64,000 nt of DNA from positions 992,001 to 1,056,000 of the forward strand of contig AE017150.2 of assembly GCA_000002445.1 (NCBI GenBank), given 5' to 3'. This DNA comes from Trypanosoma brucei (lineage: Eukaryota). This document shows positions 1-24,666 of the stretch, one piece after another (the stretch's first letter is position 1; every line of letters begins with the position of its first letter). Made by a program: the position numbers and the translations under genes. The notes below the pieces were generated by a model. That model worked only from the letters and a program-made list of their open reading frames with translations, did not search any database and was not told where the DNA came from.

Positions 1-2193
1 AACAAACATGGCAACGTTCATGCCGCGGAGAAACTTTCCTTGAAGTTCCGCGAGTGTGACAGAGCACATATCATTGTCATCGGTGCATTCCAGGTATTCG
101 TCCACGCTAAAGAAGTGTGGCAAGCCCTGTGGAGGACAGACTTCTAGCGTACTCTCTCCGCGGAGGTTTACTGCCGTCTGCACATCATTCTGTCCCGTTC
201 CCGTTTTGTGGTTGAGTACAATCAAACGCACTCGGTTTGAAGGAACACTCTGTCGTTCCCTTGAAACCCTGATAATTGGTGACGACCCCCCCTCAACGAG
301 ACACATCCCATCTTCAGCCACTTTAACCGTATGAGACCCAGACACTCCACCAGTACTAAGCTCGCTGCACGGATGCCATCTCTTTCGGGAAACAACTGCA
401 GCCGGCGGGCGCACAAAGCTTTGAGATGCGGTAATGGACTCTGCACCCGCCACTAAACTGATCGATGACCCATTCATTCTCCCGGGGCCCTGAACTGCCT
501 TTTCCCTGGAACGCTTCTGAATGGAAAGTTGCTCGCTTCCACCCATACATACCCCCTGTCCTACACCTTGATTCTTATCTAGACTACAACTGGCTGACCT
601 GCATGTCGAACCTGGACGACTGTCGCCGCAACGAGCGATGCATGGGTTAATCGAACGAAGCTCCGTTCCGCATCGCAGATGCACACCCACAGAGCAGGAG
701 ATATGAGACTGCAGATATTGCTCACACTCCCTTTCCATGCCCACAGACACCCCCTCGGCAGACAAAATAGCCCCCTCACCCTCTTCCGCAGTACAAATCG
801 ACTGACGGGACGGCAAAGGTGAGCTTATAATCAAATTCGAGTCGCCTTTGAGGCCACTAAAGTACGGATACTCCATCCCCCCAATTAAACTATCCACCAA
901 AGAGTTACATGATGGAGTTCCAACCCTGCCACGTGCGCGGTCAGTAAGAATGGCAGATATGGGAAGAGCTTTCGACGGCAAACTGAGTCCGGTACCTTCT
1001 TTGACGTCCCCTAACGGCCCTTCGGCGCCCACAAAGTCAGAGGCTGCAGAAGGACATGAAAACGTTTTTGGTAGTACGTCGCCGACCATGGTGAGCTCAA
1101 CGTTACCGGAAGCTTTTCCTTCCTCGGTACGCAGAGGCTGCGCGTTCACGACTCCGGTGGGAGCACCTATGATGTCCTCGCTGCACCTCTGATATACCGC
1201 TCCACTCGTCCCATTTGTCAGGGCACCAGTTCCTCGATCATCATGTCGAGGAAACAGCATCAGTTCATTGTTGGATCCACTGTCCCCACGGCGCATAACT
1301 CCCATGCATATCTCACTAGCTTTTTGCGTGTGCCCCTCACTGCAACTTCCACTCGAGAGAACACCGGGAATCCCGTTGTCTGTGCAAAGTAGCCCCAATA
1401 CCATATCCACATCATAAAGGGAACTCTCACTCACACCTAAGGTATCACAGCCCCTTGTAGTGCCCTGCGGAAGATTGCATTTTCCGTCAAAGGCCCGGAA
1501 AGACCACCTCAGCCACCTCTCCGATGTTCCGTTAGGAGATGTTTTGCCCTGCAGACTGTTGGCCTCTCGCAGCACACCTACGTCGTTTCGGAGGGGACTC
1601 TCACTTGCTACCGTCAAACTCGACTGCAGCCCACCAAACTGGGCGAGCCTATTCGATTGGCCATCTAGAACCCGTGGTGGAGAGGTCGTCACGGTCGATT
1701 GCAGGGGCCAGGGACCCAGCCGCATTCCGTGAATGAAGGCATCAAGCCCATAATCGTGGCTATTCAGGTCGGCATGTTCACTCTGGAAAGCGTACGAGCA
1801 GACATAGTCGAGATCATAATACGGATAGTTTTCCCCCTCCAATGTCGCCGCTAGGTCGCTGGGCCTCGTATCAACTGTCAGGGCAACGTTGTCAATGGTT
1901 GAGCGCCCCTGAGCAACGGACACGGGCCCGTCTCCATCTTTGGCATCAAGATATATGGAAGACCTCCTCCTCCCTAAGTCTCCGTCATCAAGGCCATCCG
2001 ATCCAGTAGCCCACTCTGCAGTATTACAAACAATACTTCCACGGTCATTGTTTCCCGTTACATGAACACCAGTAGGGGAATTCCAGCCGTCGCTGAAGGT
2101 GTCTACTACCTCTTGGTGTTGCATTACCGCCTCGGACGCAAGAATATGGGACTCCACATTAGAAAAGCTTATCGAACCCTCAACATCGGACAT
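1..2193 (-). CDS. Inverted partial duplicate of the 5' ~730 codons of the 8506-14688 gene; start codon (CAT on + strand) at 2191-2193, reading frame runs off window at position 1. Status unclear: gene fragment, pseudogene or assembly artefact
   Basis: Mirror of 8506-10698 within the palindrome. It is absent from the ORF track only because no stop lies inside the window. It differs from the right-arm copy by two codons. Confidence 0.5.
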   Translation of the reverse strand, partial: MSDVEGSISFSNVESHILASEAVMQHQEVVDTFSDGWNSPTGVHVTGNNDRGSIVCNTAEWATGSDGLDDGDLGRRRSSIYLDAKDGDGPVSVAQGRSTIDNVALTVDTRPSDLAATLEGENYPYYDLDYVCSYAFQSEHADLNSHDYGLDAFIHGMRLGPWPLQSTVTTSPPRVLDGQSNRLAQFGGLQSSLTVASESPLRNDVGVLREANSLQGKTSPNGTSERWLRWSFRAFDGKCNLPQGTTRGCDTLGVSESSLYDVDMVLGLLCTDNGIPGVLSSGSCSEGHTQKASEICMGVMRRGDSGSNNELMLFPRHDDRGTGALTNGTSGAVYQRCSEDIIGAPTGVVNAQPLRTEEGKASGNVELTMVGDVLPKTFSCPSAASDFVGAEGPLGDVKEGTGLSLPSKALPISAILTDRARGRVGTPSCNSLVDSLIGGMEYPYFSGLKGDSNLIISSPLPSRQSICTAEEGEGAILSAEGVSVGMERECEQYLQSHISCSVGVHLRCGTELRSINPCIARCGDSRPGSTCRSASCSLDKNQGVGQGVCMGGSEQLSIQKRSREKAVQGPGRMNGSSISLVAGAESITASQSFVRPPAAVVSRKRWHPCSELSTGGVSGSHTVKVAEDGMCLVEGGSSPIIRVSRERQSVPSNRVRLIVLNHKTGTGQNDVQTAVNLRGESTLEVCPPQGLPHFFSVDEYLECTDDNDMCSVTLAELQGKFLRGMNVAMFV

Positions 2194-2693
2194 GTACGCT
2201 TGAAGATGGGGGAGGGGGGAAAGTGAACCTTGATACCTCACCCGTCACAGTTGGCTTCCTACACCAGCTCCTTCCTATATGTAGCGTGGAATACCCTTCA
2301 GCAGAGAGTGCAAGGATGCAGTGAAGTGGCGTAAAGAAGTAAGCAACACAGAAATATGAAGACAGAAACGGACGTGGCTCCATAATATTGCTACCTGAAG
2401 TTGCCGAGCATTGCTGACTATTAAAAAAAAAAAAAAACAGCGCCAGCACACTCGTATTGCCTTTATGCAGGACAATGGAGCCACGTGCGAATAGTGGGTT
2501 GTGAATGCAATGAAAAAGACATATATGTTTATAAACCAACAAAGATACATGCGCTTCTTGGTGGACGCAGACAGTCTTGTCAGCCCTGCCCACTCCCAAA
2601 CTACACTTCTATATAGTGCGAAGAAGGCATAACGCATCCAACAATAATCTGGACGTGCACAGTGAGGAGAGGAAGTTCTTACAAGGAAAAATA

Positions 2694-2694
<1 letters not shown>

Positions 2695-2729
<35 letters not shown>
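2695..2729. repeat. (TA)n microsatellite; longer than its right-arm partner
   Basis: Direct reading of tatatata... run. Confidence 0.9.
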
Positions 2730-2734
<5 letters not shown>

Positions 2735-4955
2735 CTACGCAAACAGTAGAATCATAACCCCCCCCCCGGTATTTTCCCCGCCGGGTGCCATCCACAACAA
2801 ACTAAAACCCGTTCTCACGGTAGAACGCCCGGATTCCGTTCCAGTAGTGATAATTCGAGTACTTGGTACAACATTTCTCTATCATGCCCTGATGACAAAT
2901 CAGTACAGCTCACCTAAGGAGAATAACAATAAATTCGTAGCTACTTTCTGAAGTGTAGTTTGGTAGACCGGGCCATGTTCCGCTCACAACATTCAGTGCC
3001 CAAATTTTCCATACATATGCAATTGGTCAGATGGTATATTGTCATCCAACTTTCTTGCGCCGTCGCGGGCAGCTGGATACCCCAGCAGACGGCAGTGTCT
3101 TTGTTGGAAACAATGTTATGTATGGGAAGGTGCGTACACACACAGGGTGGGGACCTTCATGGTTTTTTCCATGGCCCACTTCAATGCTACAAGTTAACCG
3201 ACCTGCTGTAGATGCAGTGGAAACCAACATACGTAAAAACTAATATGCCATGATAAATCCTTAGAGGAACACAACTGCTCAACGGTGTCATACGACCCCC
3301 ACACCTCCAGTAAACGTTTGAAATACTGATAAGTGCGTCCATGTATGGATCCACATCCCGAGACGCCGGCTGGCCGCCTTCAACAAGACACGGATTTCCA
3401 TTCAAGTACTAACACAGTAGCCAATACCGAGAGAAAATCCTCCACATAGTGTGCAACTAGAAACATCGGTTTCTCGCACCATGTTCGCATCGCAGCCGCC
3501 CCCCTCCAATCTCACCAAGAGGAAGTAGTGCATCACTGAGTCTGCCTTGTTGTACTTTCCACGCAGTCAAATAGTTATTACTCGCAGTTTCCTAGCGTTC
3601 AAACATAATCCAAGCTCCCCAATAGAAGGGTTGACGCTCGCACCCTGACAATCAGGTCAGTATGGCTAAGACAAATATGATGGTAACATAGAGCATATCG
3701 AATATAAATCATAGTATGATACTCACATTTCTACGCTGGGCAAACAGACGTTATTGAGACCCTTTTTTCTCACCAGAGGACGGGGATGAAAAGAAGAAAG
3801 CAAAGCACTCACTATTAACGCGGAAGGATATTGTGAAGGCGCACATATAGGTCTAAGATTGAGTTGTTTCGGATGCCTTCAAAGGGATTTGTGTCCAAAC
3901 AACTTCACATACACGGGATACGTATCCCATTCACGCACCTCCCAACCCCAACTTAGCGCACCCCAATGGGTTTACCACTCGGTGCATGCAACCTTTCGCC
4001 ATCTAAAAAATAAGTACTCGTTGTAGGTCATGGATCCTTGCTAAGCGCACCTCCTGAGGATATGCAACAACCTATCCATGGGTATACCACGGAACCGACG
4101 ACGTTAAAGATACGTAAACAAGGGAGAAAGATTATCTGAAGATTTCCTAACATGGTTTGAGTCGGTGACCAACAGCGTACATTCCCTTCCGTACCCCATC
4201 CCTAATAAAAACGTACACCCTTATCCCAGCCGTCCGCGATCACATCACTATTGCTATTTCTGTTTTTTAGAACTCTAAAACACATCAAGGGCCGTACTGA
4301 CAAACCTTCCGCACCCACCACCAAAACAGTGGCGAGGCCGCCGACCGCAGCAGTGGTAACCGGAAGAGGAAGGAAACAAACAATGGTGCGGTAGTAACCT
4401 GCTCTTCGAAATTCAGCAGTAGATGACAGATACTTGCTAGCTCTCTGCAAGTCCCACGCAGGATAGGCGTACGGCACAGTGCAACGTGTTACGGCTGCGC
4501 AGCAAGGTCAAGCACACGAAGTACCGGTTCGCTTCATCGTTGCATGACGCACGATCAGAAGATTCAATGGAATAATCGACACATAATATATTGGATCACC
4601 TAATTTTCTCTATACTGCCAATCCACCGTGGAAAACTGACGCACTTACAAAGGGTTAGAGGAAGTTCCACCGAAAAAAATATAGCATACTATGACCCGTG
4701 CTAAAAATCAGGGGCGGCTGCCACACCGTTATCGAACGCCCAGGCCGAACACGCACGCACGCACGCACGCACGTGACCGGCGCGGCAGAAACTTTGAGGC
4801 GCAGTAAATAAACCGACAGCGTCAGGCACCGACGGAAAGAGCACGTAAAACACCGCAAGTAGAATTTTACGTACCGGAAGGCTGTAAGTCACGCGAGAAC
4901 CGGGAAAGCAGCAGTACGCTCGGCCCGTATTAATCAAGTGTGCAGGCGACCTCTT

Positions 4956-4971
4956 GGGTTAGGGTTAGGGT
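4956..4971. repeat. Telomere-like hexamer block GGGTTAGGGTTAGGGT (2.5 x TTAGGG), interstitial
   Basis: Read directly. The mirror copy ACCCTAACCCTAACCC lies at 5737-5752. Each arm also has an adjacent (CGCA)n run (4741-4766 and partner). Confidence 0.85.
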
Positions 4972-5286
4972 CGGCCGCTTCAACCACCCACCGAAAATAC
5001 AACAAAAAAGGCAGAACTAGAAACAACAGCAGACCTCCACACGTGCGATGACACCCACAATAAAGGGCGACGTGGGCGGGGAAGGCGGTGGGGCTGAAGC
5101 GCGGAAGCGGCCGCACGAGGAGCCGTTCCTCGCCCTCCGCGTTTGGACGGACGGAAAGGGCACGGTTCCGCCGACGTCGCCCACACACAGCTATCCAGAC
5201 CCCTCTCACCCTCCAACAAGCGGGCGCAGGGCATCTAGACAACCAACCTCGTAGAACGAGGTGGGGAACCACATCCCCAACCCGGC

Positions 5287-5421
5287 CCAGCTGTCTAATT
5301 ATGCTATTAAAACCCAAAGTGCGGGAAGCGAGTCTCCGTACGCGAGTCCGATGGGTGCTTCTCGCAAGTTGAAAATGTTATGGTAACACGGCACCTCTGC
5401 CTTTACGTTTGGTTCCTTGGT
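5287..5421. other. Unique 135-bp spacer/loop at centre of palindrome (centre ~5354)
   Basis: The sequence between the arm ends has no reverse-complement partner. It is more AT-rich than the flanking GC-rich arm ends. Confidence 0.8.
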
Positions 5422-7972
5422 GCCGGGTTGGGGATGTGGTTCCCCACCTCGTTCTACGAGGTTGGTTGTCTAGATGCCCTGCGCCCGCTTGTTGGAGGGT
5501 GAGAGGGGTCTGGATAGCTGTGTGTGGGCGACGTCGGCGGAACCGTGCCCTTTCCGTCCGTCCAAACGCGGAGGGCGAGGAACGGCTCCTCGTGCGGCCG
5601 CTTCCGCGCTTCAGCCCCACCGCCTTCCCCGCCCACGTCGCCCTTTATTGTGGGTGTCATCGCACGTGTGGAGGTCTGCTGTTGTTTCTAGTTCTGCCTT
5701 TTTTGTTGTATTTTCGGTGGGTGGTTGAAGCGGCCGACCCTAACCCTAACCCAAGAGGTCGCCTGCACACTTGATTAATACGGGCCGAGCGTACTGCTGC
5801 TTTCCCGGTTCTCGCGTGACTTACAGCCTTCCGGTACGTAAAATTCTACTTGCGGTGTTTTACGTGCTCTTTCCGTCGGTGCCTGACGCTGTCGGTTTAT
5901 TTACTGCGCCTCAAAGTTTCTGCCGCGCCGGTCACGTGCGTGCGTGCGTGCGTGCGTGTTCGGCCTGGGCGTTCGATAACGGTGTGGCAGCCGCCCCTGA
6001 TTTTTAGCACGGGTCATAGTATGCTATATTTTTTTCGGTGGAACTTCCTCTAACCCTTTGTAAGTGCGTCAGTTTTCCACGGTGGATTGGCAGTATAGAG
6101 AAAATTAGGTGATCCAATATATTATGTGTCGATTATTCCATTGAATCTTCTGATCGTGCGTCATGCAACGATGAAGCGAACCGGTACTTCGTGTGCTTGA
6201 CCTTGCTGCGCAGCCGTAACACGTTGCACTGTGCCGTACGCCTATCCTGCGTGGGACTTGCAGAGAGCTAGCAAGTATCTGTCATCTACTGCTGAATTTC
6301 GAAGAGCAGGTTACTACCGCACCATTGTTTGTTTCCTTCCTCTTCCGGTTACCACTGCTGCGGTCGGCGGCCTCGCCACTGTTTTGGTGGTGGGTGCGGA
6401 AGGTTTGTCAGTACGGCCCTTGATGTGTTTTAGAGTTCTAAAAAACAGAAATAGCAATAGTGATGTGATCGCGGACGGCTGGGATAAGGGTGTACGTTTT
6501 TATTAGGGATGGGGTACGGAAGGGAATGTACGCTGTTGGTCACCGACTCAAACCATGTTAGGAAATCTTCAGATAATCTTTCTCCCTTGTTTACGTATCT
6601 TTAACGTCGTCGGTTCCGTGGTATACCCATGGATAGGTTGTTGCATATCCTCAGGAGGTGCGCTTAGCAAGGATCCATGACCTACAACGAGTACTTATTT
6701 TTTAGATGGCGAAAGGTTGCATGCACCGAGTGGTAAACCCATTGGGGTGCGCTAAGTTGGGGTTGGGAGGTGCGTGAATGGGATACGTATCCCGTGTATG
6801 TGAAGTTGTTTGGACACAAATCCCTTTGAAGGCATCCGAAACAACTCAATCTTAGACCTATATGTGCGCCTTCACAATATCCTTCCGCGTTAATAGTGAG
6901 TGCTTTGCTTTCTTCTTTTCATCCCCGTCCTCTGGTGAGAAAAAAGGGTCTCAATAACGTCTGTTTGCCCAGCGTAGAAATGTGAGTATCATACTATGAT
7001 TTATATTCGATATGCTCTATGTTACCATCATATTTGTCTTAGCCATACTGACCTGATTGTCAGGGTGCGAGCGTCAACCCTTCTATTGGGGAGCTTGGAT
7101 TATGTTTGAACGCTAGGAAACTGCGAGTAATAACTATTTGACTGCGTGGAAAGTACAACAAGGCAGACTCAGTGATGCACTACTTCCTCTTGGTGAGATT
7201 GGAGGGGGGCGGCTGCGATGCGAACATGGTGCGAGAAACCGATGTTTCTAGTTGCACACTATGTGGAGGATTTTCTCTCGGTATTGGCTACTGTGTTAGT
7301 ACTTGAATGGAAATCCGTGTCTTGTTGAAGGCGGCCAGCCGGCGTCTCGGGATGTGGATCCATACATGGACGCACTTATCAGTATTTCAAACGTTTACTG
7401 GAGGTGTGGGGGTCGTATGACACCGTTGAGCAGTTGTGTTCCTCTAAGGATTTATCATGGCATATTAGTTTTTACGTATGTTGGTTTCCACTGCATCTAC
7501 AGCAGGTCGGTTAACTTGTAGCATTGAAGTGGGCCATGGAAAAAACCATGAAGGTCCCCACCCTGTGTGTGTACGCACCTTCCCATACATAACATTGTTT
7601 CCAACAAAGACACTGCCGTCTGCTGGGGTATCCAGCTGCCCGCGACGGCGCAAGAAAGTTGGATGACAATATACCATCTGACCAATTGCATATGTATGGA
7701 AAATTTGGGCACTGAATGTTGTGAGCGGAACATGGCCCGGTCTACCAAACTACACTTCAGAAAGTAGCTACGAATTTATTGTTATTCTCCTTAGGTGAGC
7801 TGTACTGATTTGTCATCAGGGCATGATAGAGAAATGTTGTACCAAGTACTCGAATTATCACTACTGGAACGGAATCCGGGCGTTCTACCGTGAGAACGGG
7901 TTTTAGTTTGTTGTGGATGGCACCCGGCGGGGAAAATACCGGGGGGGGGTTATGATTCTACTGTTTGCGTAG

Positions 7973-7977
<5 letters not shown>

Positions 7978-8004
<27 letters not shown>
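7978..8004. repeat. (TA)n microsatellite, right-arm partner of 2695-2729
   Basis: Direct reading. The length difference accounts for the 9-bp shift in mirror coordinate sums. Confidence 0.9.
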
Positions 8005-8473
8005 CTATTTTTCCTTGTAAGAACTTCCTCTCCTCACTGTGCACGTCCAGATTATTGTTGGATGCGTTATGCCTTCTTCGCACTATATAGAAGTGTAGTT
8101 TGGGAGTGGGCAGGGCTGACAAGACTGTCTGCGTCCACCAAGAAGCGCATGTATCTTTGTTGGTTTATAAACATATATGTCTTTTTCATTGCATTCACAA
8201 CCCACTATTCGCACGTGGCTCCATTGTCCTGCATAAAGGCAATACGAGTGTGCTGGCGCTGTTTTTTTTTTTTTTTAATAGTCAGCAATGCTCGGCAACT
8301 TCAGGTAGCAATATTATGGAGCCACGTCCGTTTCTGTCTTCATATTTCTGTGTTGCTTACTTCTTTACGCCACTTCACTGCATCCTTGCACTCTCTGCTG
8401 AAGGGTATTCCACGCTACATATAGGAAGGAGCTGGTGTAGGAAGCCAACTGTGACGGGTGAGGTATCAAGGTT

Positions 8474-8500
8474 CACTTTCCCCCCTCCCCCATCTTCAAG
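8474..8500 (+). promoter_or_regulatory. Polypyrimidine tract plus AG (8499-8500): putative trans-splice acceptor for the 8506 gene
   Basis: ttcactttcccccctcccccatcttcaag lies immediately upstream of the first ATG. This is the typical kinetoplastid SL-addition context. Confidence 0.5.
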
Positions 8501-8505
8501 CGTAC

Positions 8506-11500
8506 ATGTCCGATGTTGAGGGTTCGATAAGCTTTTCTAATGTGGAGTCCCATATTCTTGCGTCCGAGGCGGTAATGCAACACCAAGAGGTAGTAGACAC
8601 CTTCAGCGACGGCTGGAATTCCCCTACTGGTGTTCATGTAACGGGAAACAATGACCGTGGAAGTATTGTTTGTAATACTGCAGAGTGGGCTACTGGATCG
8701 GATGGCCTTGATGACGGAGACTTAGGGAGGAGGAGGTCTTCCATATATCTTGATGCCAAAGATGGAGACGGGCCCGTGTCCGTTGCTCAGGGGCGCTCAA
8801 CCATTGACAACGTTGCCCTGACAGTTGATACGAGGCCCAGCGACCTAGCGGCGACATTGGAGGGGGAAAACTATCCGTATTATGATCTCGACTATGTCTG
8901 CTCGTACGCTTTCCAGAGTGAACATGCCGACCTGAATAGCCACGATTATGGGCTTGATGCCTTCATTCACGGAATGCGGCTGGGTCCCTGGCCCCTGCAA
9001 TCGACCGTGACGACCTCTCCACCACGGGTTCTAGATGGCCAATCGAATAGGCTCGCCCAGTTTGGTGGGCTGCAGTCGAGTTTGACGGTAGCAAGTGAGA
9101 GTCCCCTCCGAAACGACGTAGGTGTGCTGCGAGAGGCCAACAGTCTGCAGGACAAAACATCTCCTAACGGAACATCGGAGAGGTGGCTGAGGTGGTCTTT
9201 CCGGGCCTTTGACGGAAAATGCAATCTTCCGCAGGGCACTACAAGGGGCTGTGATACCTTAGGTGTGAGTGAGAGTTCCCTTTATGATGTGGATATGGTA
9301 TTGGGGCTACTTTGCACAGACAACGGGATTCCCGGTGTTCTCTCGAGTGGAAGTTGCAGTGAGGGGCACACGCAAAAAGCTAGTGAGATATGCATGGGAG
9401 TTATGCGCCGTGGGGACAGTGGATCCAACAATGAACTGATGCTGTTTCCTCGACATGATGATCGAGGAACTGGTGCCCTGACAAATGGGACGAGTGGAGC
9501 GGTATATCCGAGGTGCAGCGAGGACATCATAGGTGCTCCCACCGGAGTCGTGAACGCGCAGCCTCTGCGTACCGAGGAAGGAAAAGCTTCCGGTAACGTT
9601 GAGCTCACCATGGTCGGCGACGTACTACCAAAAACGTTTTCATGTCCTTCTGCAGCCTCTGACTTTGTGGGCGCCGAAGGGCCGTTAGGGGACGTCAAAG
9701 AAGGTACCGGACTCAGTTTGCCGTCGAAAGCTCTTCCCATATCTGCCATTCTTACTGACCGCGCACGTGGCAGGGTTGGAACTCCATCATGTAACTCTTT
9801 GGTGGATAGTTTAATTGGGGGGATGGAGTATCCGTACTTTAGTGGCCTCAAAGGCGACTCGAATTTGATTATAAGCTCACCTTTGCCGTCCCGTCAGTCG
9901 ATTTGTACTGCGGAAGAGGGTGAGGGGGCTATTTTGTCTGCCGAGGGGGTGTCTGTGGGCATGGAAAGGGAGTGTGAGCAATATCTGCAGTCTCATATCT
10001 CCTGCTCTGTGGGTGTGCATCTGCGATGCGGAACGGAGCTTCGTTCGATTAACCCATGCATCGCTCGTTGCGGCGACAGTCGTCCAGGTTCGACATGCAG
10101 GCCAGCCAGTTGTAGTCTAGATAAGAATCAAGGTGTAGGACAGGGGGTATGTATGGGTGGAAGCGAGCAACTTTCCATTCAGAAGCGTTCCAGGGAAAAG
10201 GCAGTTCAGGGCCCCGGGAGAATGAATGGGTCATCGATCAGTTTAGTGGCGGGTGCAGAGTCCATTACCGCATCTCAAAGCTTTGTGCGCCCGCCGGCTG
10301 CAGTTGTTTCCCGAAAGAGATGGCATCCGTGCAGCGAGCTTAGTACTGGTGGAGTGTCTGGGTCTCATACGGTTAAAGTGGCTGAAGATGGGATGTGTCT
10401 CGTTGAGGGGGGGTCGTCACCAATTATCAGGGTTTCAAGGGAACGACAGAGTGTTCCTTCAAACCGAGTGCGTTTGATTGTACTCAACCACAAAACGGGA
10501 ACGGGACAGAATGATGTGCAGACGGCAGTAAACCTCCGCGGAGAGAGTACGCTAGAAGTCTGTCCTCCACAGGGCTTGCCACACTTCTTTAGCGTGGACG
10601 AATACCTGGAATGCACCGATGACAATGATATGTGCTCTGTCACACTCGCGGAACTTCAAGGAAAGTTTCTCCGCGGCATGAACGTTGCCATGTTTGTTGC
10701 TGGAAGTGAGTCAGTACCACTGTCTGGCTGGTGTGCGGTTTTTGAGGTGATGAATCATGTGTTTCGTGACATCAATGATGAGTGCGAGTTGTTTATGTCC
10801 GTTGTCCTAATACGACAGGAGTCAGCACGGGATTTGCTTTCTGAGTCCGAAGGGGGGGTGCGAACTCTAAGTTCCTCCGTCATGGCTCCTTGGGTTGCCT
10901 TTGAAAACGTCACCCATATGAAACTGAAGAGCGCACATCACTTCATCACACTTTTATCGCGTGGTCTCGAAGTTGCCGATTTGAAGCACAATTGTGTCGG
11001 AAGTCGTGTAGTTTTGTCCGTCATGTTGAAACAAATTGATGTGAATGATGTAATTTTGTCGTCGATGCTTGTGACGGGTGGTGCTACCCCTAACGACCTT
11101 GATGTGCTACTGAGGGAAGGTGACCAAAGTGCACGAAAGCTATTCCATGAAGCGTTGGGTGGTCCTTATTTCACTGTTGTGGTTTCCTCACTCTGTGAAA
11201 GGGACAGAGACCTTCTGCAGCTTCTGAGCGCCCAACATAAGTTCACTTCCGTTGTCAACCAACCGTGTACCGTAGGAAGCGTGAGTCGGTTGATCGATAA
11301 TGCGGAGGCGGAGGTTGCTGGGTGTTCCACTGACGATCAAATTGTATTGGAAAGAAAACAATTCTTGCTTGAGCGCATAGCGCTTGCGAAACATATTATG
11401 TATAACCCCAAAGGGCTTTCACTGGTAGTTGACGTGGAGGAATCAGTACGACTTGAGAAGAGGGTTCATTGTGGTGTGAAATTTGACAAGCAACCGTTCC

Positions 11501-14500
11501 CTGGACCACAGTCCTCATCTGTGTCTGCTTGTGGCGGGGATTCCCACAACGCGGCGTCTGCGCTGTGTGTGGAGGAAGGGCAAAGTAGTAAGCAGAGACA
11601 AGAACCATGTCCAAAATTTTTCTCGGAGGCACAGTGGCTGAAACCAAGTAGCAAAGGCGACACTAGAGTTACGCTCATGGGTGGCGCGCCACCGTCATCG
11701 CTGCCACAACGCAATCATTATGGGGAGGGGAAAACACCCTCGTGCTTGCCCTGTGTTACCGCAGCAGGCATGCCCACTCCCCGAGATCCCCGACTGGAGC
11801 GCCAGGTGAGGCCATCCAGCAGAAGACTCAGCATTCCAGTGGAGCCGGATCAAGCTAGTTACGCAACGACTTGCAGTATGTCGGACCCCCAAAGGGGGGA
11901 GGGTTTGCCCTCCCTGGGCCCTTTGGCAACCACATGTGGAATGGAATTGGCGCCATCTACGCAGCGTAGAGCCCACCGTTGTTTTCCTTCCTCAGCTTCC
12001 TCCGACCACACGACATGTGCATACTCACAGCGGCTGTTCTCGCTAACCCCCGCTCGGGGGGCCTCGCATGATGCTGAGGTCTCCTGTAAGATTGACACAC
12101 CCGGTGTTCCTGATGCAGAAAAAGTTAGAACTTCTACCACGCCCGATGCTTTTTCATGCCCAGGTATAAGCACAAAGGTGAAATACGACCCTGGCCTTTC
12201 TCTCCCATCCTTGAAGGCAGCACGGGGACCACCGTGTTCCATGACATCTTGCTTCCCATTCGACCCAATCCTTACGGGACCCCCCGGTGTTGTGGAGCCC
12301 GTGGAGCACTGCGGAATCTCGCAGGGCCCAGCACTCTGCAGACAGAGGGAACAGCCACAACTGCCCGATGCCTCGGTTGCATGCTCTGGGGGCTCCCCAA
12401 CCCTCACTTGCAAGCAAGTGGCTCATGCGAGCCAAAACAGCGTGCACACCGACATCAAGAAGAAGCAAATTTCTGACGGCGGTAGTGACAGCAGCGCACG
12501 GAGCGCAGAAGGCAGCGAGGATGATGTGCTGCACAGTGCCATGTCTGCACCTTCTAAGGTGAGAACGCTTGTTGTGGTCGACCAGGGTTGTGGACACGTG
12601 ATTGGTGCCGGGAACGATGACGGTGGGCCTTTCCTAAGAACTGGCGGCTCTCATGAGGGATACGAGGTTGACGAGGTGGTGAAATGGGGCGATGGTTGCG
12701 GTGACGTGCCTTCGAAGGTGTTGGGTGAGCTGTTTGATGTTTTTGTTTTGGGTTGCAACGCTGCTATCCTTACTGCAGAGAGTGGTTCCTCAACCGTGTC
12801 ATCAACTGTGCTTAGGGGTCTCGTACGGAATGTGCTTTCAGAGGTTGTTGATGCTTCGGGCCTCCAGAATTCCAACCGTAGAGGATTGCTCAGCTTATCG
12901 ATTGTGAAATTGAGCGGAGAGCGCATGCTTGATCTGCTGGATGATAGCAGCGAGCCGGAGAGGTTGGTCATAGCTATGTCGCCGATCTTCGGCCCGTGTG
13001 TTCACAACGCCCGCCGGTTTCCTGTTAGCAGCTGCAGCGGGTTCGACTCGCTACTGGCATCAGCCCTTCGTCGCGCCAAGAACGCAGGGGTCGATGATGG
13101 GTTGGTGTTCGTCTCAGTTGTACTAAAGCAGAAGCTGAAAGCGGATGGGGATGTCCTTGTCTCATCTCTCGCAGTCAGTTTGGCAGGGGAAAACGTTGAC
13201 CTCTACACATCCGTGCTGAACCGTGTCTCGCGCGCACCGCGTGCGCTATTTCACTACGCATTGGGTGGACCGTGTTATACTGTAGCGTTGCTTAGTATTG
13301 ATGTCGCAACGACTCAGACCGAAAATATGCTGCGCGTGCAGAAGTGTATTGGAGAGGTGGTGAACCGGCCGATACACCGCGGAAGCATCGTGAAGTTTAT
13401 TAGCGGAATCCGGGATGATCTCGTGCCTAGTCTTCGTGAAAAGTTTCAAGGGTCGAATAAATGTGAGCCGTCAGATAATATATTGTACCGGCTCGAGGAA
13501 ATGGTGCGAGACGCAGAATTGCTTTTGGAGAATTTCGAGTCGAATGACCCCCGCGCATATCTTAGTGACAAAGAGACAAGGTCGCCTAAGGGGTGCGTGT
13601 CGCTCCTAGAGACCAAAGCCAGAACCGGGGACGAGGGGAGGGTTCATTCACTTTTATTCTTCGAGCAACGACTCCTTAGTGATGGTACCGCTGGTGTGCA
13701 AGGTAACTCCGTATTTACCCGAGCAGGGGCGATTACCCGCCGCTATGGCGTCGACGAGGTGGTGTTGCGTGGGCCCGACAGCGACAGTAATGCTACTCTG
13801 TGTTCACGTCTTCTTGATGAGCTCGTTCGGAAGTTTATGTCGGGGCATTGCACTGCTGTTCTTGCCGCAGATAGCCACAACTCCGCTTCCACACCGCTTA
13901 TCCTCCGCAAGATAGTGTACCTTATCCTGCAGAGTACGAAAGCAGGGGTGGGTTGCGGGCCGGTGGGTGGCGACTTGCTCCTCTCAATGGCGCTCGTTAA
14001 GAACGGTGTTACGGTGGATCTATTGGCAGCTGAAGAATCCGAGGCGGTTCACCGCTTCGGGGTGGAAATATCACCACTCTTCGACCGCCACGTACGGGGA
14101 GTGTCGCATCGCGTTGTCGCCGACACTGAGGCTTTTGACCGTTTTTTAGTTGGGGCTGTCGAGCACGTCGTACCCACCCTACAAGCCGAGGATCCCGGCC
14201 TGATGGTTGTTTCCTTAAAGTTAACACACCATGTGGAAGAACCTGTACACGACGTGTTTGTTTCCTCGCTCATGGTGACCACCGTATTCGATCACGTTTC
14301 CCACTACAGCGACATTTTGTCAAACCGCTCTAGTGAGCTCACGGACCTTTTCAAGCTCGCGTTGGGGGGGCCATGTTTCACTATCGTCGCGCTTGGATTG
14401 TGTGACGAAGATGATGATGCGGAAGCCTTGCTTTCCGTGCAAACTAAGCTTTCCCAGGTGCGAAACCTGCCGTCTCATCGCACGAGTGCTCTACGGCGCA

Positions 14501-14688
14501 TGGATGAACTTACGAAAACAATTCAGGTGCTGGGGGTCCAGCTTCAGGAAGAAGAAAGTGAGGAAGAAAAGGCCCAACTCCGCGTGAGGATCGTCCGTGC
14601 AAGGCGTTTCCTGCTAGAAGTTGAGTCACTCCTCAAGAACCCACCACGGGAAATGGGCTGCGTACGCGCTTACAAGTCGGTGCACTGA
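8506..14688 (+). CDS. Large (2060 aa) protein with a ~700-aa S/G-rich low-complexity N-terminus followed by three degenerate kinesin-motor-like modules (pseudokinesin-like); paralogue of the next two genes
   Basis: ORF track 8458..14688 starts at GTG; the first ATG is at 8506. Each module follows the kinesin motor skeleton with catalytic motifs degenerate: GSRVV in place of SSRSH, and LFHEALGGPYFTVVVSSLCERD resembling LLQDSLGGNSKTLMIATISP. Other module versions are ALGGPCYTVALLSI and ALGGPCFTIVALGLC. Modules end with coiled-coil plus [LM]L.[ND]P...Y motifs (LLENFESNDPRAY; LLKNPPREMGCVRAY). Confidence 0.6.
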   Translation: MSDVEGSISFSNVESHILASEAVMQHQEVVDTFSDGWNSPTGVHVTGNNDRGSIVCNTAEWATGSDGLDDGDLGRRRSSIYLDAKDGDGPVSVAQGRSTIDNVALTVDTRPSDLAATLEGENYPYYDLDYVCSYAFQSEHADLNSHDYGLDAFIHGMRLGPWPLQSTVTTSPPRVLDGQSNRLAQFGGLQSSLTVASESPLRNDVGVLREANSLQDKTSPNGTSERWLRWSFRAFDGKCNLPQGTTRGCDTLGVSESSLYDVDMVLGLLCTDNGIPGVLSSGSCSEGHTQKASEICMGVMRRGDSGSNNELMLFPRHDDRGTGALTNGTSGAVYPRCSEDIIGAPTGVVNAQPLRTEEGKASGNVELTMVGDVLPKTFSCPSAASDFVGAEGPLGDVKEGTGLSLPSKALPISAILTDRARGRVGTPSCNSLVDSLIGGMEYPYFSGLKGDSNLIISSPLPSRQSICTAEEGEGAILSAEGVSVGMERECEQYLQSHISCSVGVHLRCGTELRSINPCIARCGDSRPGSTCRPASCSLDKNQGVGQGVCMGGSEQLSIQKRSREKAVQGPGRMNGSSISLVAGAESITASQSFVRPPAAVVSRKRWHPCSELSTGGVSGSHTVKVAEDGMCLVEGGSSPIIRVSRERQSVPSNRVRLIVLNHKTGTGQNDVQTAVNLRGESTLEVCPPQGLPHFFSVDEYLECTDDNDMCSVTLAELQGKFLRGMNVAMFVAGSESVPLSGWCAVFEVMNHVFRDINDECELFMSVVLIRQESARDLLSESEGGVRTLSSSVMAPWVAFENVTHMKLKSAHHFITLLSRGLEVADLKHNCVGSRVVLSVMLKQIDVNDVILSSMLVTGGATPNDLDVLLREGDQSARKLFHEALGGPYFTVVVSSLCERDRDLLQLLSAQHKFTSVVNQPCTVGSVSRLIDNAEAEVAGCSTDDQIVLERKQFLLERIALAKHIMYNPKGLSLVVDVEESVRLEKRVHCGVKFDKQPFPGPQSSSVSACGGDSHNAASALCVEEGQSSKQRQEPCPKFFSEAQWLKPSSKGDTRVTLMGGAPPSSLPQRNHYGEGKTPSCLPCVTAAGMPTPRDPRLERQVRPSSRRLSIPVEPDQASYATTCSMSDPQRGEGLPSLGPLATTCGMELAPSTQRRAHRCFPSSASSDHTTCAYSQRLFSLTPARGASHDAEVSCKIDTPGVPDAEKVRTSTTPDAFSCPGISTKVKYDPGLSLPSLKAARGPPCSMTSCFPFDPILTGPPGVVEPVEHCGISQGPALCRQREQPQLPDASVACSGGSPTLTCKQVAHASQNSVHTDIKKKQISDGGSDSSARSAEGSEDDVLHSAMSAPSKVRTLVVVDQGCGHVIGAGNDDGGPFLRTGGSHEGYEVDEVVKWGDGCGDVPSKVLGELFDVFVLGCNAAILTAESGSSTVSSTVLRGLVRNVLSEVVDASGLQNSNRRGLLSLSIVKLSGERMLDLLDDSSEPERLVIAMSPIFGPCVHNARRFPVSSCSGFDSLLASALRRAKNAGVDDGLVFVSVVLKQKLKADGDVLVSSLAVSLAGENVDLYTSVLNRVSRAPRALFHYALGGPCYTVALLSIDVATTQTENMLRVQKCIGEVVNRPIHRGSIVKFISGIRDDLVPSLREKFQGSNKCEPSDNILYRLEEMVRDAELLLENFESNDPRAYLSDKETRSPKGCVSLLETKARTGDEGRVHSLLFFEQRLLSDGTAGVQGNSVFTRAGAITRRYGVDEVVLRGPDSDSNATLCSRLLDELVRKFMSGHCTAVLAADSHNSASTPLILRKIVYLILQSTKAGVGCGPVGGDLLLSMALVKNGVTVDLLAAEESEAVHRFGVEISPLFDRHVRGVSHRVVADTEAFDRFLVGAVEHVVPTLQAEDPGLMVVSLKLTHHVEEPVHDVFVSSLMVTTVFDHVSHYSDILSNRSSELTDLFKLALGGPCFTIVALGLCDEDDDAEALLSVQTKLSQVRNLPSHRTSALRRMDELTKTIQVLGVQLQEEESEEEKAQLRVRIVRARRFLLEVESLLKNPPREMGCVRAYKSVH

Positions 14689-16410
14689 GGCTGGTGTGCC
14701 TCCATTCTGACGTTTATTACTCCAAGCCTCATCTACTTGTCACTTTGTGTGCTAGCATGAAGGTACTTGTGCACTACTGCCGAACGCTCGCACCCCTATG
14801 GGTCCGGTTGAGCTGTGGAAGTGGGTACACACTTCTAGTATGTTGGGTTTCCCCACCTTAACACTACCTCTGGTTGCGTTGCCCATTCGGTGGCTCGGAT
14901 ACGCCAAAATTTGTGTGTGCGTCGTTATATAAATGTCATACACACGCGCGTATATATATATATATATATGTACCCCATAAGTGTTCCCTTCTCCCTGCTG
15001 GTGCACGCTGCTGCTACCAAGATACCGCTTGTTTACTTCGATAAATTTGCTTCTCCCACGTGCCGTTGAAGGGCGGTAAGGGTGAAAAGCGATACCTTTG
15101 TCTCGCTGCCGCGGGGGAGCTAGGGCGGGACTTCGCTTTACCTCTTTCTGAGGGTTTCTGTAAGCCGATCTCTCTTCCGCAGAGAGTGGTAAGTATAATG
15201 TGTGTGTGTGTGTTTAGTGTATTCCCTTCCTGCGCATCGTCTTAAGTGCTTAGTACATTTTTTAGTTTTTTTTCGTGTTGCCGTAAATTTATCTCTTTCT
15301 TTCATCGCCTTTGTTATCTGCAATGCGTCCGCATTTGGGAAAAGGTAGGAAGGAGTGTTCCCTTCGTGAACGTAGTGAGTGGTTGGAAATAAAGTGAGCC
15401 GTGTGTGCTGACCGTCACGCGCGTTTTTTTTTTGTGTGTGTGTGTGTGTTTATTTCAATTTTGCTGTGTTTTTGCGGTTATTCGATGGGAACCCACCCTT
15501 CCCCCCTCCCCTAGAGTTTTTTACACGTGTTGGGCGGAAGGTCATAGTAGCGACCCGAGGAAGTACCGACACAGCCTCTTTTTATTTTTTATATACCATT
15601 TACTTACGTGTTCTCCCCCTTTGTACCACTGCTACTGTTTTGGGGTCGCGCTCCGTTGACGCGGAGTCACTTACATCGATGAATAGCATGTGTGCCCATT
15701 GTATTTTTTTCCAGGTATCCTCTGCTTACTACTAATAATAATGAATGCACCGCGGAAACTAAATAGCGATCGCTTCATACGACTTGTTGTTGCGGTGACT
15801 AGGGCGCCCTTCCCAAGGGCAGCACGGAAGGTTTTGTCGGGATAACATCATGTCTTCATTCTTTCATTCCTTTTACTCTTGCACACCGATAACGTAGCAA
15901 GTCGCGAATAGGATCGGCAGCTTCACTGAGAAGGTCTTTGCAATGCACTGAGCAAAACCCCTGTGAGGGCACGCCGCTGAAACTGGTAATTATATTTCAG
16001 AGTGAGAAGATTCAACTGCCGAATCCACGGCTGCACAAGTCTCCGTATTGCATCTCGGTAAAATCTGAGCTGGCGCGGAGAATTCTGTGTGGGCTTGGGG
16101 AGCAGTTACATAGCATCTTTGGACGGGAATAATACCCCTTGTACCCAAGAAGGGATCCTGTCGGATGTGCTCCGACTTACTTTGTAGTCACGCACACACA
16201 CATGCTCGGCAATCTTCCTCATCTGTGTTGTCAGCACGGTTCCCAGACCTCTACGATACTTGTTTTTACCGTCGACGGCGTGGCGCCATGCCTCGGAGGT
16301 TACACGTTTCATGCGAGTCACATACGTTCTTGGGTTTGTCCCACTTTCCAACTTGGTGTAAGACGTTCCGTGGTCAGCCCGGCCTAGTTAGTTGTTCAAA
16401 CGCCTCTGTT

Positions 16411-16446
16411 TCCCTCCCCCTCTCCTATTTCTACGTTTCTCAAAAG
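16411..16446 (+). promoter_or_regulatory. Polypyrimidine tract plus AG: putative trans-splice acceptor for the 16515 gene
   Basis: cgcctctgtttccctccccctctcctatttctacgtttctcaaaag lies upstream of the first ATG at 16515. Confidence 0.45.
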
Positions 16447-16514
16447 CTGTCTTTGGTTTCAGAAAGAGGAGCGAAAGCAAGGGAAGTCAAGCAAGTAAGT
16501 TTTGTAACCGTAAA

Positions 16515-19500
16515 ATGATGAGAAAGAACTTGAACTCAAACGACGTCAGCCAGCCGCATTCTACTACAACATTGGACACAAACCCGGCATCGTACGGTAC
16601 GGTGCGTAACCCCCTGCATTCAGTGGTTGGGCCTACGGGTTACGGAGCACAACCACCCATATCGTCTCCAGCGACTTGGGTGAACAACCATTCGGCAGCC
16701 TTTGCCGCCCAGGGCCTGGGACCACACTGTGGAGCCCCCGGCGGTAGACCCTTCCCAGTGGTGCGTGGTTCAACGAATCGCGGAGATTCATATACAGAGC
16801 TTCAATGCCCAGTGGCAGGGTCAGGGCCAACCAACCCGTATGGGAATCGAACCGCGATCGACAAACTTCCTGGCTTGGAGGGCGGCCGATTTGATTGTGG
16901 AGGAGCCGGTCAGCGGCGCGGCCCATTACTCGGGGTATCGGGGGACCTCTATGGCGTGACAGGAATCAGTAATTCCACATCCAGAGGAAACGATCGACAC
17001 AACGGATCCATGTATGGCACGAACCCCACGTACAGCAAGACCTCGAGAACGGGTTCCATGTATGGCATGGGTTCCATGTATGGCAGAACATCGAGAATAG
17101 GTTCCATGTATGGCATGGGTTCCATGTATGGCAGAACATCAAGAACAGGTTCCATGTATGGCATGGGTTCCATGTATGGCAGAACATCGAGAATAGGTTC
17201 CATGTATGGCAGAACATCGAGAATAGGTTCCATGTATGGCAGAACATCAGGAACAGGTTCCATGTATGGGATGGGCTCAATTTATGGCATGGGTTCCATG
17301 TATGGCAGAACATCAAGAACAGGTTCCATGTATGGTCCGCGGATGGAATATGGCCCGATATACGGCGTGGGAGGGCCCATGGGTTCCATGTACGGTCCGC
17401 AGATGGGATACGGCCCGATATACGGTGTGGGAGGGCCCACGGGTTCCATGTACGGTCCGCAGATGGGATACGGCCCGATATACTGTGTGGGGCCCATGTA
17501 CGGCCGACCATCGAGGACAGATTCCGTGTACGGTCCGCAGATGGGACACGGCCCGATGTACTGTGTGGGAGGGCTGCTCTACAACAAAGCATTTCAGGAG
17601 GGTGACCCAGGCCGAGGCCCCACCGTACCTAAATCCGCGCCGTGCAACTCCAGCACTCCTTCCGCAGGAGTTACAACAAAGCCTGACGCGGAACCGGACA
17701 GGGAAGAGAAGGAGCCACGCGTTACTGGCGGAAAGAAGCCTACCACTTTCACCAACAAAGGACCCGCTGCCGAGACCGCCAAGAAACCCTGCGACCTGGA
17801 TTCTGGAAACGGGAAAGTAAAACACTCTCCTGTTGCTCAGGTTCCGCCTGACAACAGCGTTCGCACACTAATGGTGGTGAGCAGTGAGGCAGGACCGCAA
17901 GTAACAATAAAAGAGGAGGAGCGGAAGGTGGGCGTGGCGAGCAGTGGCGAGGAGGTCGTTTACTACGAAGGTGACGAGGTCGTGCACGGGGATGAGATCA
18001 CTGTGGAAAAGTCTGCACTTCTACAAATGATCGTCCAGCAGGTGGAACTGGGCCACAACACCGCTCTCATTTTGTCCGACAGTACACCGCAGCAGACTCT
18101 CTCTGCGTGCGTCACTACATCCGTAATGAAATCCATATTGGCGGCACTCAGGAAGGGTGAGACGGAAAATGGAACCAAATACGAGGTTTTGGCGACTGCA
18201 GCGGATGTGCCAACGATCGCGACCGCCAGAGATCTTCTGGCCGTGGAGAGCGAGGCAGTGAAAATTGCTCGATATGGCTCCAATCCCATGTTGGGTGCGT
18301 GCCTGATGGACCTGCAGGAGACAGTGCTACGGGACGATGCTGATGTCGATGTGTTTGTACAAGAGGCACTGAAAAAGTCATCGGGCACTGCGGCATTGGG
18401 TGTTATGCATGCGACGTTGAAGCAGATCAGAAAAACCAGCAGCGCTGCACCTACGGTGTACGTCTCCTCTTTCGTATGCCTGTTCGTGAAGGATGGGGTC
18501 GAACACCTCCAAGATCTTCTTGACATGAATGGGAAGGTTGTGCCTCTCCCACTTGCGAAGAGTGTTTTGGGCGGAGGCAGCTGTGTGGTTGCCGTGGTTG
18601 GTGCATCAGGTAAGGACGTGGCAGTGGACGCGAAGATCCTGAGCAACACCGCTGCGCTGCGGGGGGTAAAAAACACACCGCCACGGAGTGGTAACGTCGC
18701 CCGTTTTGTTGAGTTTGCGGAGACCCAGTTCACGGAATGTAAAGCTGCCATTGAACGTTCGAAGGAAGCGGCGGAGCGAGAGCGCCACGAGCGGACGCTT
18801 CGGAGGTTGGAGATCATGCTCTCGGACGCGCGGAAGCTGCTGTCGGACCCTGAGGAGACGCGGGCAAAAGTGTATCCACCAAGCCGAGAGTCAGTGAAGA
18901 ACGGCTCTGTCGAGAACGATGGCGGGAATGTGAGAAATGGTGCCTCCATAGAGGATGACAGACCCAGCGCCGCCACGTTAGCACCAGCTCCCGCGTCTGC
19001 TGATTCTCTGACCGAGCCAAAGGAGCAGGAGGTGATTGGGGCTCCTGCCCCAGCACACACCACAGAACCGTGGGAAAAGACCGCCAAAATCATTGTAACT
19101 GCGGGGTCGGGGCCCTCGAACGGCACCGCTGAGGTTGTTGCAGGAGGCGAGAAGAAAACTGACGAAGTTGATGAATATATCCAACGCACCGGCGTAAGAC
19201 CTGTGGATTCCGTTATTGCAAAGCGTATGGAGGGTATTCTTACCCAAGGATACAACGTAGCCCTCTTGTCTGCGGAGATGGTGCCTGACGAAGTTACAGG
19301 GGATCAGGTGACATGGAGTCTCGTGAAGGCGATCCTGAAGGGTGCACTAAGCAAAAAGGATGGCGTAACAAATGAGTGTACCCTGCAGATGAGCATCCTC
19401 AGAGGTGACAAAGTCGTGCTGGACCTGCTTGGATCGTCAGAAAAGCGACAGCTTGTTGTCGCAAGGTCTCCAATATTTGGTGTGACGGTACAGGGAGCTA

Positions 19501-24622: not shown

Positions 24623-24625
<3 letters not shown>

Positions 24626-24664
<39 letters not shown>

Positions 24665-24666
24665 TA
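24626..24666. repeat. (TTA)n microsatellite (~13 units)
   Basis: Direct reading. It produces poly-L/poly-Y/poly-N runs in the spurious ORFs 24345..24725+, 24604..24804+ and 24440..24709-. Confidence 0.9.

What the first reader, a model, noticed from the sequence alone, without database searches (positions are those of the whole stretch)
4700..6010. Telomere-like TTAGGG hexamers and (CGCA)n in a GC-rich block flanking the palindrome centre
Each arm carries GGGTTAGGGTTAGGGT (4956-4971; mirror 5737-5752) about 400 bp from the centre, and a (CGCA)n run about 600 bp out. Both sit in an unusually GC-rich 330-bp block (about 4955-5286 and 5422-5753) with no credible ORF. A 16-nt telomere-repeat match at a palindrome centre is unlikely by chance. 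It suggests a past telomere-healing or chromosome-end fusion event, or a conserved interstitial telomeric element.
Basis: partly seen in the sequence, partly recalled or inferred. Interest (0 to 1): 0.55.

Follow-up and report, generated by a model that had tools for sequence, protein, structure and literature searches.

The report
Short telomere-like repeat in a promoter region
A real 16-base telomere-like run sits in the non-coding start region between two diverging gene clusters on Trypanosoma brucei chromosome 2; it appears twice only because that region is the centre of a genuine 47-kb mirror-image duplication, and nothing shows it marks an old chromosome end.

Summary
GGGTTAGGGTTAGGGT is at 4956-4971 and its mirror at 5737-5752. 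(CGCA)5 lies at 4752-4771 and 5937-5956. A 62% GC block with no credible ORF flanks a 135-nt unique spacer.

The window is T. brucei TREU927 chromosome 2, 992,001-1,056,000. The palindrome is real, not an assembly artefact. Its arms are about 23.5 kb (right arm 5422-28955) and it is seen in four independent assemblies. The two telomere-like runs are therefore one element copied by the duplication. They are separated by 765 bp of non-telomeric DNA and lie at none of the duplication junctions.

The centre is a published divergent RNA polymerase II start region between Tb927.2.5540 and Tb927.2.5600. The repeat, the GC block and the microsatellite all lie between the 5' ends of the two outward transcripts.

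T. congolense has a single-copy layout, with no inverted repeat and no telomere-like 9-mer in the 7 kb upstream of its orthologue. T. theileri and T. vivax loci also lack the run.

Best reading: a short interstitial telomeric sequence, probably neutral, inside a dispersed promoter. Telomere healing or fusion is not supported but not strictly excluded. Interest is low to moderate.

The parts
4956..4971 (+). Interstitial telomere-like run GGGTTAGGGTTAGGGT (2.5 units), left-arm copy. The G-strand points towards the centre.
   Evidence: Identical in L009 (T. b. equiperdum PacBio assembly).
5737..5752 (-). Mirror copy (ACCCTAACCCTAACCC on the + strand), right arm.
   Evidence: Identical in L002 (DAL972), L005 (T. 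equiperdum OVI) and L009.
4752..4771 (.). (CGCA)5 microsatellite, left arm.
   Evidence: 5 units in TREU927 and T. equiperdum OVI, 4 units in DAL972 and L009. This is ordinary length polymorphism.
5937..5956 (.). (TGCG)5 microsatellite, right-arm mirror.
4955..5286 (.). GC-rich non-coding block, left arm (61.7% GC).
5422..5753 (.). GC-rich non-coding block, right arm. Sense-strand G+T is 0.617 over 5422-5721 (96th percentile).
5287..5421 (.). 135-nt unique spacer at the palindrome centre (49% GC).
   Evidence: It is written in the opposite orientation in L009 and L002.
1..5286 (-). Inner 5.3 kb of the left arm, which runs off the window start. It carries the 5' part of Tb927.2.5540 (complement of 1-2193).
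   Evidence: it carries the three residues that distinguish XP_951714.
5422..28955 (+). Right arm of the inverted duplication (23.5 kb): Tb927.2.5600, POMP22B (Tb927.2.5610), a 214-aa gene and a 764-aa gene.
   Evidence: duplicated TREU927 accessions up to the 764-aa gene, single for adenylate kinase. (sharp boundary at 28955).
2413..4614 (-). Tb2.NT.59, a published transcript for which no spliced-leader site is tabulated, leaving the centre leftwards.
   Evidence: Kolev 2010 supplementary file 23, converted with the offset 992,000.
6940..8296 (+). Tb2.NT.60, the published counterpart on the right.
8404..14688 (+). Tb927.2.5600 mRNA from its mapped spliced-leader acceptor (AG at 8402-8403); the CDS is 8506-14688.

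Best explanation
The telomere-like run is a short interstitial telomeric sequence of 2.5 TTAGGG units. It lies in the non-coding core of a divergent strand-switch region, which is an RNA polymerase II transcription start region, between Tb927.2.5540 and Tb927.2.5600 on T. brucei chromosome 2.

It is seen twice in mirror image because, in the T. brucei lineage, a 23.5-kb segment was copied in inverted orientation. That segment comprised the upstream region plus four genes. The copy was inserted next to a 135-nt spacer, making a 47-kb palindrome whose centre is now the start region.

Each arm brings its own copy of the GC-rich, mildly GT-rich dispersed promoter sequence. Polymerase leaves outwards from both copies. 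The first mapped transcripts begin about 340 bp beyond the telomere-like run.

The (CGCA)n run is an ordinary polymorphic microsatellite.

Shown: the sequence features, the reality and extent of the palindrome, its absence next to the T. congolense orthologue, and the published start-region status.

Inferred: that the run itself is selectively neutral. It may be a leftover of telomerase action at an internal break, or of slippage, and is not a working telomere-related element.
For: Identity of the locus:
- The right-arm ORF is identical to XP_951715. The left-arm copy carries the three differences of XP_951714.
- Spliced-leader sites from Kolev 2010 fix the window at chr2:992,001-1,056,000, with AG exactly at 8402-8403.

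The palindrome is real:
- TREU927 has paired accessions for three further genes, and a single accession for adenylate kinase.
- The PacBio assembly CM010673.1 shows arm-spacer-arm.
- The T. equiperdum OVI contig ends 32 nt into the other arm.
- DAL972 has a gap where the second arm belongs.

Start region:
- Kolev 2010 Table S14 lists the units Tb927.2.5540->5410 (-) and Tb927.2.5600->5660 (+) as 'Divergent'.
- Transcripts Tb2.NT.59 and Tb2.NT.60 start outside the run.
- Start regions in T. brucei are broad, lack motifs and are GT-rich on the coding strand (PMC5579346). Here G+T is 0.617, the 96th percentile.

One element, not two: the arms are more than 99.9% identical.

Not a gene: no homologue, no Pfam match, no Rfam match and no notable RNA fold around the run.

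Lineage-specific: the T. congolense upstream 7 kb has no inverted repeat and no telomere-like 9-mer. It carries U2 snRNA in the divergent orientation, which matches the left arm's layout.
Against: A 16-nt exact telomere match is expected only 0.09 times in the whole core genome, so 'neutral' does not mean 'chance'. Some process put it there, and I cannot say which.

The GT-richness is modest, and no promoter assay exists for this block.

RNA-seq reads cannot be assigned between two identical arms, so the published transcript ends are approximate.

Divergence among the T. brucei assemblies is about 1%. This gives no power to detect constraint on 16 nt.

I could not scan the whole genome for other internal runs or for other copies of the block.
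Confidence: 0.6

Rival explanations
1. Relic of telomere healing or of an end-to-end or sister-chromatid fusion. An eroded chromosome end carrying a few TTAGGG units fused, and the palindrome is the product of that event.
For: In each arm the G-strand points towards the centre, which is the orientation expected for head-to-head ends. The locus is rearranged in the T. brucei lineage relative to T. congolense, T. vivax and T. theileri. An exact 16-mer is not chance.
Against: The two runs are copies of one element. There are 765 bp of non-telomeric DNA between them. None of the duplication junctions read has telomeric repeats: not the two inner ones (5286/5287, 5421/5422) nor the outer ones, the left arm's being read only in L008. 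No degenerate repeats and no subtelomeric elements are nearby. The site is about 197 kb from the chromosome end. The T. congolense layout explains the structure as a simple inverted insertion into an existing strand-switch region.
Confidence: 0.1
2. Functional cis-element. It could be a binding site for a duplex-TTAGGG Myb protein (TbTRF) or a seed for base J. It would act as a promoter or insulator element like plant telo-boxes or yeast Tbf1 sites. Alternatively, it could be a fork barrier that provoked the fold-back duplication about 315 bp away.
For: The run lies between the diverging transcripts, roughly 340 bp upstream of the first mapped transcript end. It is invariant in four assemblies.
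Against: There is only one full TRF-type half-site plus a partial one. No other start region was available for comparison. The run is not detectable in T. congolense. Invariance over 16 nt at 1% divergence is uninformative. My searches found no report of internal TTAGGG sites in T. brucei start regions.
Confidence: 0.12
3. Template of a telomerase-RNA-like or other non-coding RNA. The sense strand of each outward unit reads CCCUAACCCUAACCC, which contains the TbTR template CCCUAACCCUA.
For: The sequence itself. A polypyrimidine tract (5672-5715) and an AG (5729-5730) lie 6 nt upstream and could serve as a splice acceptor (read directly).
Against: TbTR is transcribed from a single locus on chromosome 11 (PMC4229120, PMC5175330). 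There is no Rfam match. The fold z-score for the window holding the run is +1.1. The published tables read here list no spliced-leader site or transcript over it.
Confidence: 0.03
4. Assembly artefact: a fold-back chimeric read or a collapsed repeat.
For: The arms are nearly identical. They differ at a microsatellite and a homopolymer, as sequencing errors would.
Against: The palindrome is supported by BAC-based Sanger, whole-genome Sanger, Illumina and PacBio assemblies of four strains. The central spacer is not an adapter.
Confidence: 0.01

Closest known systems
Short interstitial telomeric sequences, as described in mammals (from my own knowledge of that literature)
   Same: A few exact telomere hexamers at an internal site, with unique flanks and no degenerate array.
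   Different: No empty orthologous site could be aligned to show insertion at a break. Trypanosomes lack classical end-joining, so the insertion route would differ.
Divergent strand-switch regions / dispersed Pol II start regions of T. brucei (Kolev 2010, PMC2936537; Wedel 2017, PMC5579346)
   Same: It lies between diverging gene clusters, is listed as 'Divergent' in Table S14, has no defined motif, and is mildly GT-rich on the coding strand.
   Different: Here the two halves are exact mirror copies because the region is the centre of a 47-kb inverted duplication, and it carries a telomere-like run.
Head-to-head telomere fusion sites such as human 2q13 (from my own knowledge)
   Same: TTAGGG on one side and CCCTAA on the other, pointing at each other.
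   Different: The runs do not abut, are only 2.5 units long, are copies of each other, and are flanked by identical rather than different chromosome ends.
Fold-back inverted duplications with a short non-palindromic centre: the Tetrahymena rDNA palindrome (from my own knowledge) and Leishmania linear amplicons (PMC4256157, seen)
   Same: Long, near-identical inverted arms around a short unique spacer.
   Different: This one is chromosomal, interstitial with unique flanks on both sides, and fixed in the T. brucei group, not an extrachromosomal amplicon.
T. brucei telomerase RNA template (PMC8643685)
   Same: Contains CCCUAACCCUA on the transcribed strand.
   Different: Different chromosome, no shared structure found, and no evidence of a stable RNA.

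Membership tests
Short interstitial telomeric sequence | Tandem exact telomere hexamers at a chromosome-internal site | tested here: met
   16 nt, 2.5 units, at chr2:996,956 and 997,737 of a 1.19-Mb chromosome.
Short interstitial telomeric sequence | Present in independent assemblies, so not a sequencing artefact | tested here: met
   Identical in TREU927, DAL972, T. equiperdum OVI and T. b. equiperdum PacBio.
Short interstitial telomeric sequence | Insertion relative to an 'empty' orthologous site | tested here: inconclusive
   The T. congolense upstream region has no telomere-like 9-mer, but its non-coding DNA does not align with T. brucei.
Head-to-head telomere fusion site | Inverted TTAGGG/CCCTAA arrays abutting at the junction | tested here: not met
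   765 bp of non-telomeric DNA, including a 135-nt unique spacer, lie between them.
Head-to-head telomere fusion site | The two sides derive from two different chromosome ends with subtelomeric sequence | tested here: not met
   The sides are more than 99.9% identical copies. No other TTAGGG dimer occurs in the window or in the flanking loci L007 and L008.
Divergent Pol II transcription start region (T. brucei) | Lies between gene clusters on opposite strands pointing away from each other | tested here: met
   ORF orientation. The left copy is on the - strand.
Divergent Pol II transcription start region (T. brucei) | Experimental enrichment of primary-transcript 5' ends | not testable with these tools
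   Taken from Kolev 2010 Table S14, which lists both units as 'Divergent'. No raw data were read here.
Divergent Pol II transcription start region (T. brucei) | GT-rich coding strand | tested here: inconclusive
   G+T is 0.617 over 5422-5721, the 96th percentile, and 0.55-0.60 further out against a mean of 0.539. This is modest.
Telomerase RNA | Template complementary to the telomere repeat on the transcribed strand | tested here: met
   ACCCTAACCCTAACCC lies on the sense strand of the right unit.
Telomerase RNA | Located at the known single TbTR locus, with conserved helices and a C/D box | tested here: not met
   TbTR is on chromosome 11. There is no Rfam match and no significant fold. The TbTR sequence itself was not available for alignment.
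Fold-back inverted duplication | Long inverted arms of near identity around a short unique spacer, with sharp outer ends | tested here: met

The most novel reading that the evidence does not exclude
The internal telomere-like run is not inert. It would be bound by telomere-repeat proteins or modified with base J inside a Pol II start region. There it would act as a promoter or insulator element, or as the replication-fork barrier that triggered the nearby fold-back which created the 47-kb palindrome in the T. brucei lineage.
Probability: 0.1. Interest if true: 0.55.

Novelty: new member of a known kind. Interest (0 to 1): 0.25.

Why it matters
Mostly as a clarification. The mirror-image 'telomere repeats' at a palindrome centre look like the scar of a chromosome fusion. 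They are in fact one short internal telomere-like run that was copied when a promoter region and four genes were duplicated in inverted orientation.

The locus is still a neat natural case. A start region for two gene clusters is built from two identical, back-to-back copies of one promoter half. It arose after the split from T. congolense.

If the run turned out to bind telomere proteins, it would be a handle on how trypanosome start regions are marked.

Tried and rejected
- **Assembly artefact.** Rejected: four independent assemblies show the palindrome.
- **Telomerase RNA gene or paralogue.** Rejected on location: TbTR is a single locus on chromosome 11. There is also no RNA-family match or fold signal. 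I could not obtain the TbTR sequence; PMC3616428 is not held.
- **Protein-coding block.** Rejected: no homologue and no Pfam match.
- **Canonical G-quadruplex.** No four-tract motif occurs in 4300-6400.
- **Dispersed repeat.** No further copy in the window or in any fetched locus. A genome-wide test was not possible.
- **Short-read Logan contigs.** They start near the splice acceptor at about 8407-8413 and do not reach the centre.
- **El-Sayed 2003 chromosome II paper.** Not held.
- **Literature searches.** Searches for internal TTAGGG sites in T. brucei found nothing specific.
- **Alignment with T. congolense.** Alignment of the T. congolense and T. brucei intergenic DNA failed, apart from U2 and a (TA)n run.
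- **T. grayi.** The contig starts 92 nt before the gene.
- **Bacterial promoter/terminator scan.** Not applicable to this organism.
Full report
**What is in the sequence**

The window reads GGGTTAGGGTTAGGGT at 4956-4971 and ACCCTAACCCTAACCC at 5737-5752. (CGCA)5 is at 4752-4771 and its mirror at 5937-5956.

These features lie in an inverted repeat, 1-5286 against 5422-10698. It surrounds a 135-nt unique spacer at 5287-5421. The two arms differ by three substitutions (left-arm positions 597, 1190, 1547), four TA units and one C.

The block next to the spacer is 61.7% GC, with a core of 65.8%, against 46-50% in the flanks. That is the 99.5th percentile of 300-nt windows here, although coding peaks reach 63%.

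The ORFs that cross the block have no homologue and no Pfam match.

An exact 16-nt match to the telomere repeat in any register is expected 2.2e-4 times per window and 0.09 times per 26-Mb core genome. The (CGCA)n run lies outside the GC block. The two runs are not independent.

**Where the window comes from**

- The 2060-aa ORF at 8506-14688 is identical to XP_951715 of T. brucei brucei TREU927.
- The partial mirror copy carries exactly the three residues that distinguish XP_951714.
- Spliced-leader sites in the supplement of Kolev et al. 2010 (PMC2936537) place Tb927.2.5600 and Tb927.2.5610 so that window position 1 is chr2:992,001. The acceptor AG sits at 8402-8403 as predicted.
- The genes are Tb927.2.5540 (left) and Tb927.2.5600 (right), followed by POMP22-1 and POMP22B (PMC7952579).

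**The palindrome is real and large**

- TREU927 has paired accessions for the genes at 16515-21083, 23115-23759 and 25505-27799. It has a single accession for adenylate kinase at 29719-30501.
- In the PacBio assembly of T. b. equiperdum (CM010673.1), locus L009 shows arm, spacer and arm. The left copy (L008) stops matching the window sharply at 28955.
- The T. equiperdum OVI contig (L005) runs through the spacer and ends 32 nt into the other arm, as a short-read assembler does at a collapsed inverted repeat.
- DAL972 (L002) has degraded sequence and a 100-N gap where the second arm belongs, and it resumes at window 27445.

The arms are therefore about 23.5 kb and the whole structure about 47 kb. 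The telomere-like run is identical in all four assemblies. The tetranucleotide run has 5 or 4 units.

**What the centre does**

Kolev et al. list the units Tb927.2.5540->5410 (-) and Tb927.2.5600->5660 (+) as 'Divergent' Pol II transcription units (Table S14).

They also list two transcripts for which no spliced-leader site is tabulated. Tb2.NT.59 is window 4614->2413 on the - strand. Tb2.NT.60 is 6940->8296 on the + strand.

The telomere-like run, the GC block and the microsatellite therefore sit in the roughly 1.5 kb between the outward transcripts. The run is about 340 bp upstream of the mapped end of Tb2.NT.59.

T. brucei start regions are broad, lack motifs and are GT-rich on the coding strand (Wedel 2017, PMC5579346). 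Here the coding-strand G+T is 0.617 over 5422-5721, the 96th percentile, and 0.55-0.60 further out against a mean of 0.539. This is consistent but modest.

One caveat applies: reads cannot be assigned between identical arms, so the transcript ends are approximate.

**Is it an RNA gene?**

- Rfam finds only U2 snRNA at 32689-32837. The centre has nothing at permissive thresholds.
- Only the window 5422-5571 folds better than shuffles (z = -3.2). The window holding the run has z = +1.1.
- The sense strand does contain the telomerase RNA template CCCUAACCCUA. However, TbTR is transcribed from a single locus on chromosome 11 (PMC4229120, PMC8643685, PMC5175330).

**Evolution**

The T. theileri orthologue lies inside a gene cluster with same-strand neighbours and no telomere-like run. 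In T. vivax, adenylate kinase is followed on the same strand by a family member, again with no run.

A profile-free search of representatives plus cluster names led to a T. congolense contig, L015. The 7 kb upstream of its orthologue have no inverted repeat and not even a GGGTTAGGG 9-mer. They do carry a U2 snRNA gene in the opposite orientation.

That layout matches the T. brucei left arm once the right arm is removed. The right arm (5422-28955) is therefore the inserted inverted copy, and the event post-dates the split from T. congolense.

Non-coding DNA of the two species does not align, so there is no empty-site test for the run. T. congolense also has other near-identical gene copies on contigs that I could not read, so a duplication elsewhere in that species is not excluded.

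**Verdict on the interpretation**

The 'mirror' telomere repeats are one element duplicated with its surroundings.

- They are 765 bp apart.
- They lie at none of the duplication junctions.
- They are not flanked by degenerate repeats or subtelomeric sequence.

This fails the defining features of a fusion site. A healing or fusion origin for the single ancestral run cannot be excluded, but nothing here calls for it.

I commit to a short interstitial telomeric sequence, probably neutral, embedded in a dispersed bidirectional promoter that was doubled by a fold-back type inverted duplication. My confidence in the whole statement is about 0.6. The structural parts are close to certain; the neutrality is the weak part.

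Noticed in passing
window 1-28955 (the left arm continues beyond the window start): A 47-kb inverted duplication with 23.5-kb arms and a sharp outer boundary at 28955/28956. The arms are so alike that the 764-aa gene copies differ by one residue and the POMP22 and 214-aa copies are identical. I found no description of it in the searchable literature.
   Followed up: yes
window 5287-5421; L009 6798-6925; L002 6798-6932: The 135-nt central spacer is written in the opposite orientation in the T. b. equiperdum PacBio and DAL972 assemblies compared with TREU927. This is either flip-flop recombination between the arms or an orientation that no assembly could phase across 23.5-kb identical arms.
   Followed up: partly
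L015 384-527 versus window 32686-32830: In T. congolense the U2 snRNA gene lies 6.5 kb upstream of the kinesin-like gene in the divergent orientation, with no adenylate kinase gene detectable between them. This fixes which T. brucei arm is ancestral.
   Followed up: yes
window 8506-14688, 16515-21083, 25505-27799; L008 15880-18522: The genes in the arms, and the 880-aa gene beyond the left arm, share repeated inactive kinesin-like NTPase-like domains. A 2026 paper (PMC13416946) treats Tb927.2.5610 (POMP22B) as one of the T. brucei KIAP4 paralogues, a family linked to insect-vector adhesion; the other genes' membership is my inference from the shared domains.
   Followed up: partly
window 5672-5736: A polypyrimidine tract followed by AG at 5729-5730 lies 6 nt before the C-strand telomere-like run. 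This is a potential trans-splice acceptor. The published spliced-leader tables I read list no site there.
   Followed up: no
window 5422-5571: A cluster of local hairpins directly beside the spacer folds better than all 200 shuffles (z = -3.2). Such short inverted repeats could have seeded the fold-back.
   Followed up: no
window 2695-2729 versus 7978-8004, and 2759-2767 region: The only length differences between the arms are a (TA)n run (17.5 against 13.5 units) and one C in a poly-C run. T. congolense also has a (TA)n run just upstream of its orthologue (L015 6893-6913).
   Followed up: partly
window 24918-24929: TTATGGTTAGGG, a one-mismatch telomere-like 12-mer inside the right arm. This is at chance level.
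   Followed up: no
window 43385-45530 and 46967-48457: Long in-frame tandem repeats (453-bp unit x 4.7, 492-bp x 2, and 60/90-bp units) inside the 3075-aa ORF at 42074-51301.
   Followed up: no
L002 6610-6797: In DAL972 the sequence left of the spacer decays into a poor, partly arm-like stretch before a 100-N gap. This looks like read failure through the palindrome rather than a real difference.
   Followed up: partly
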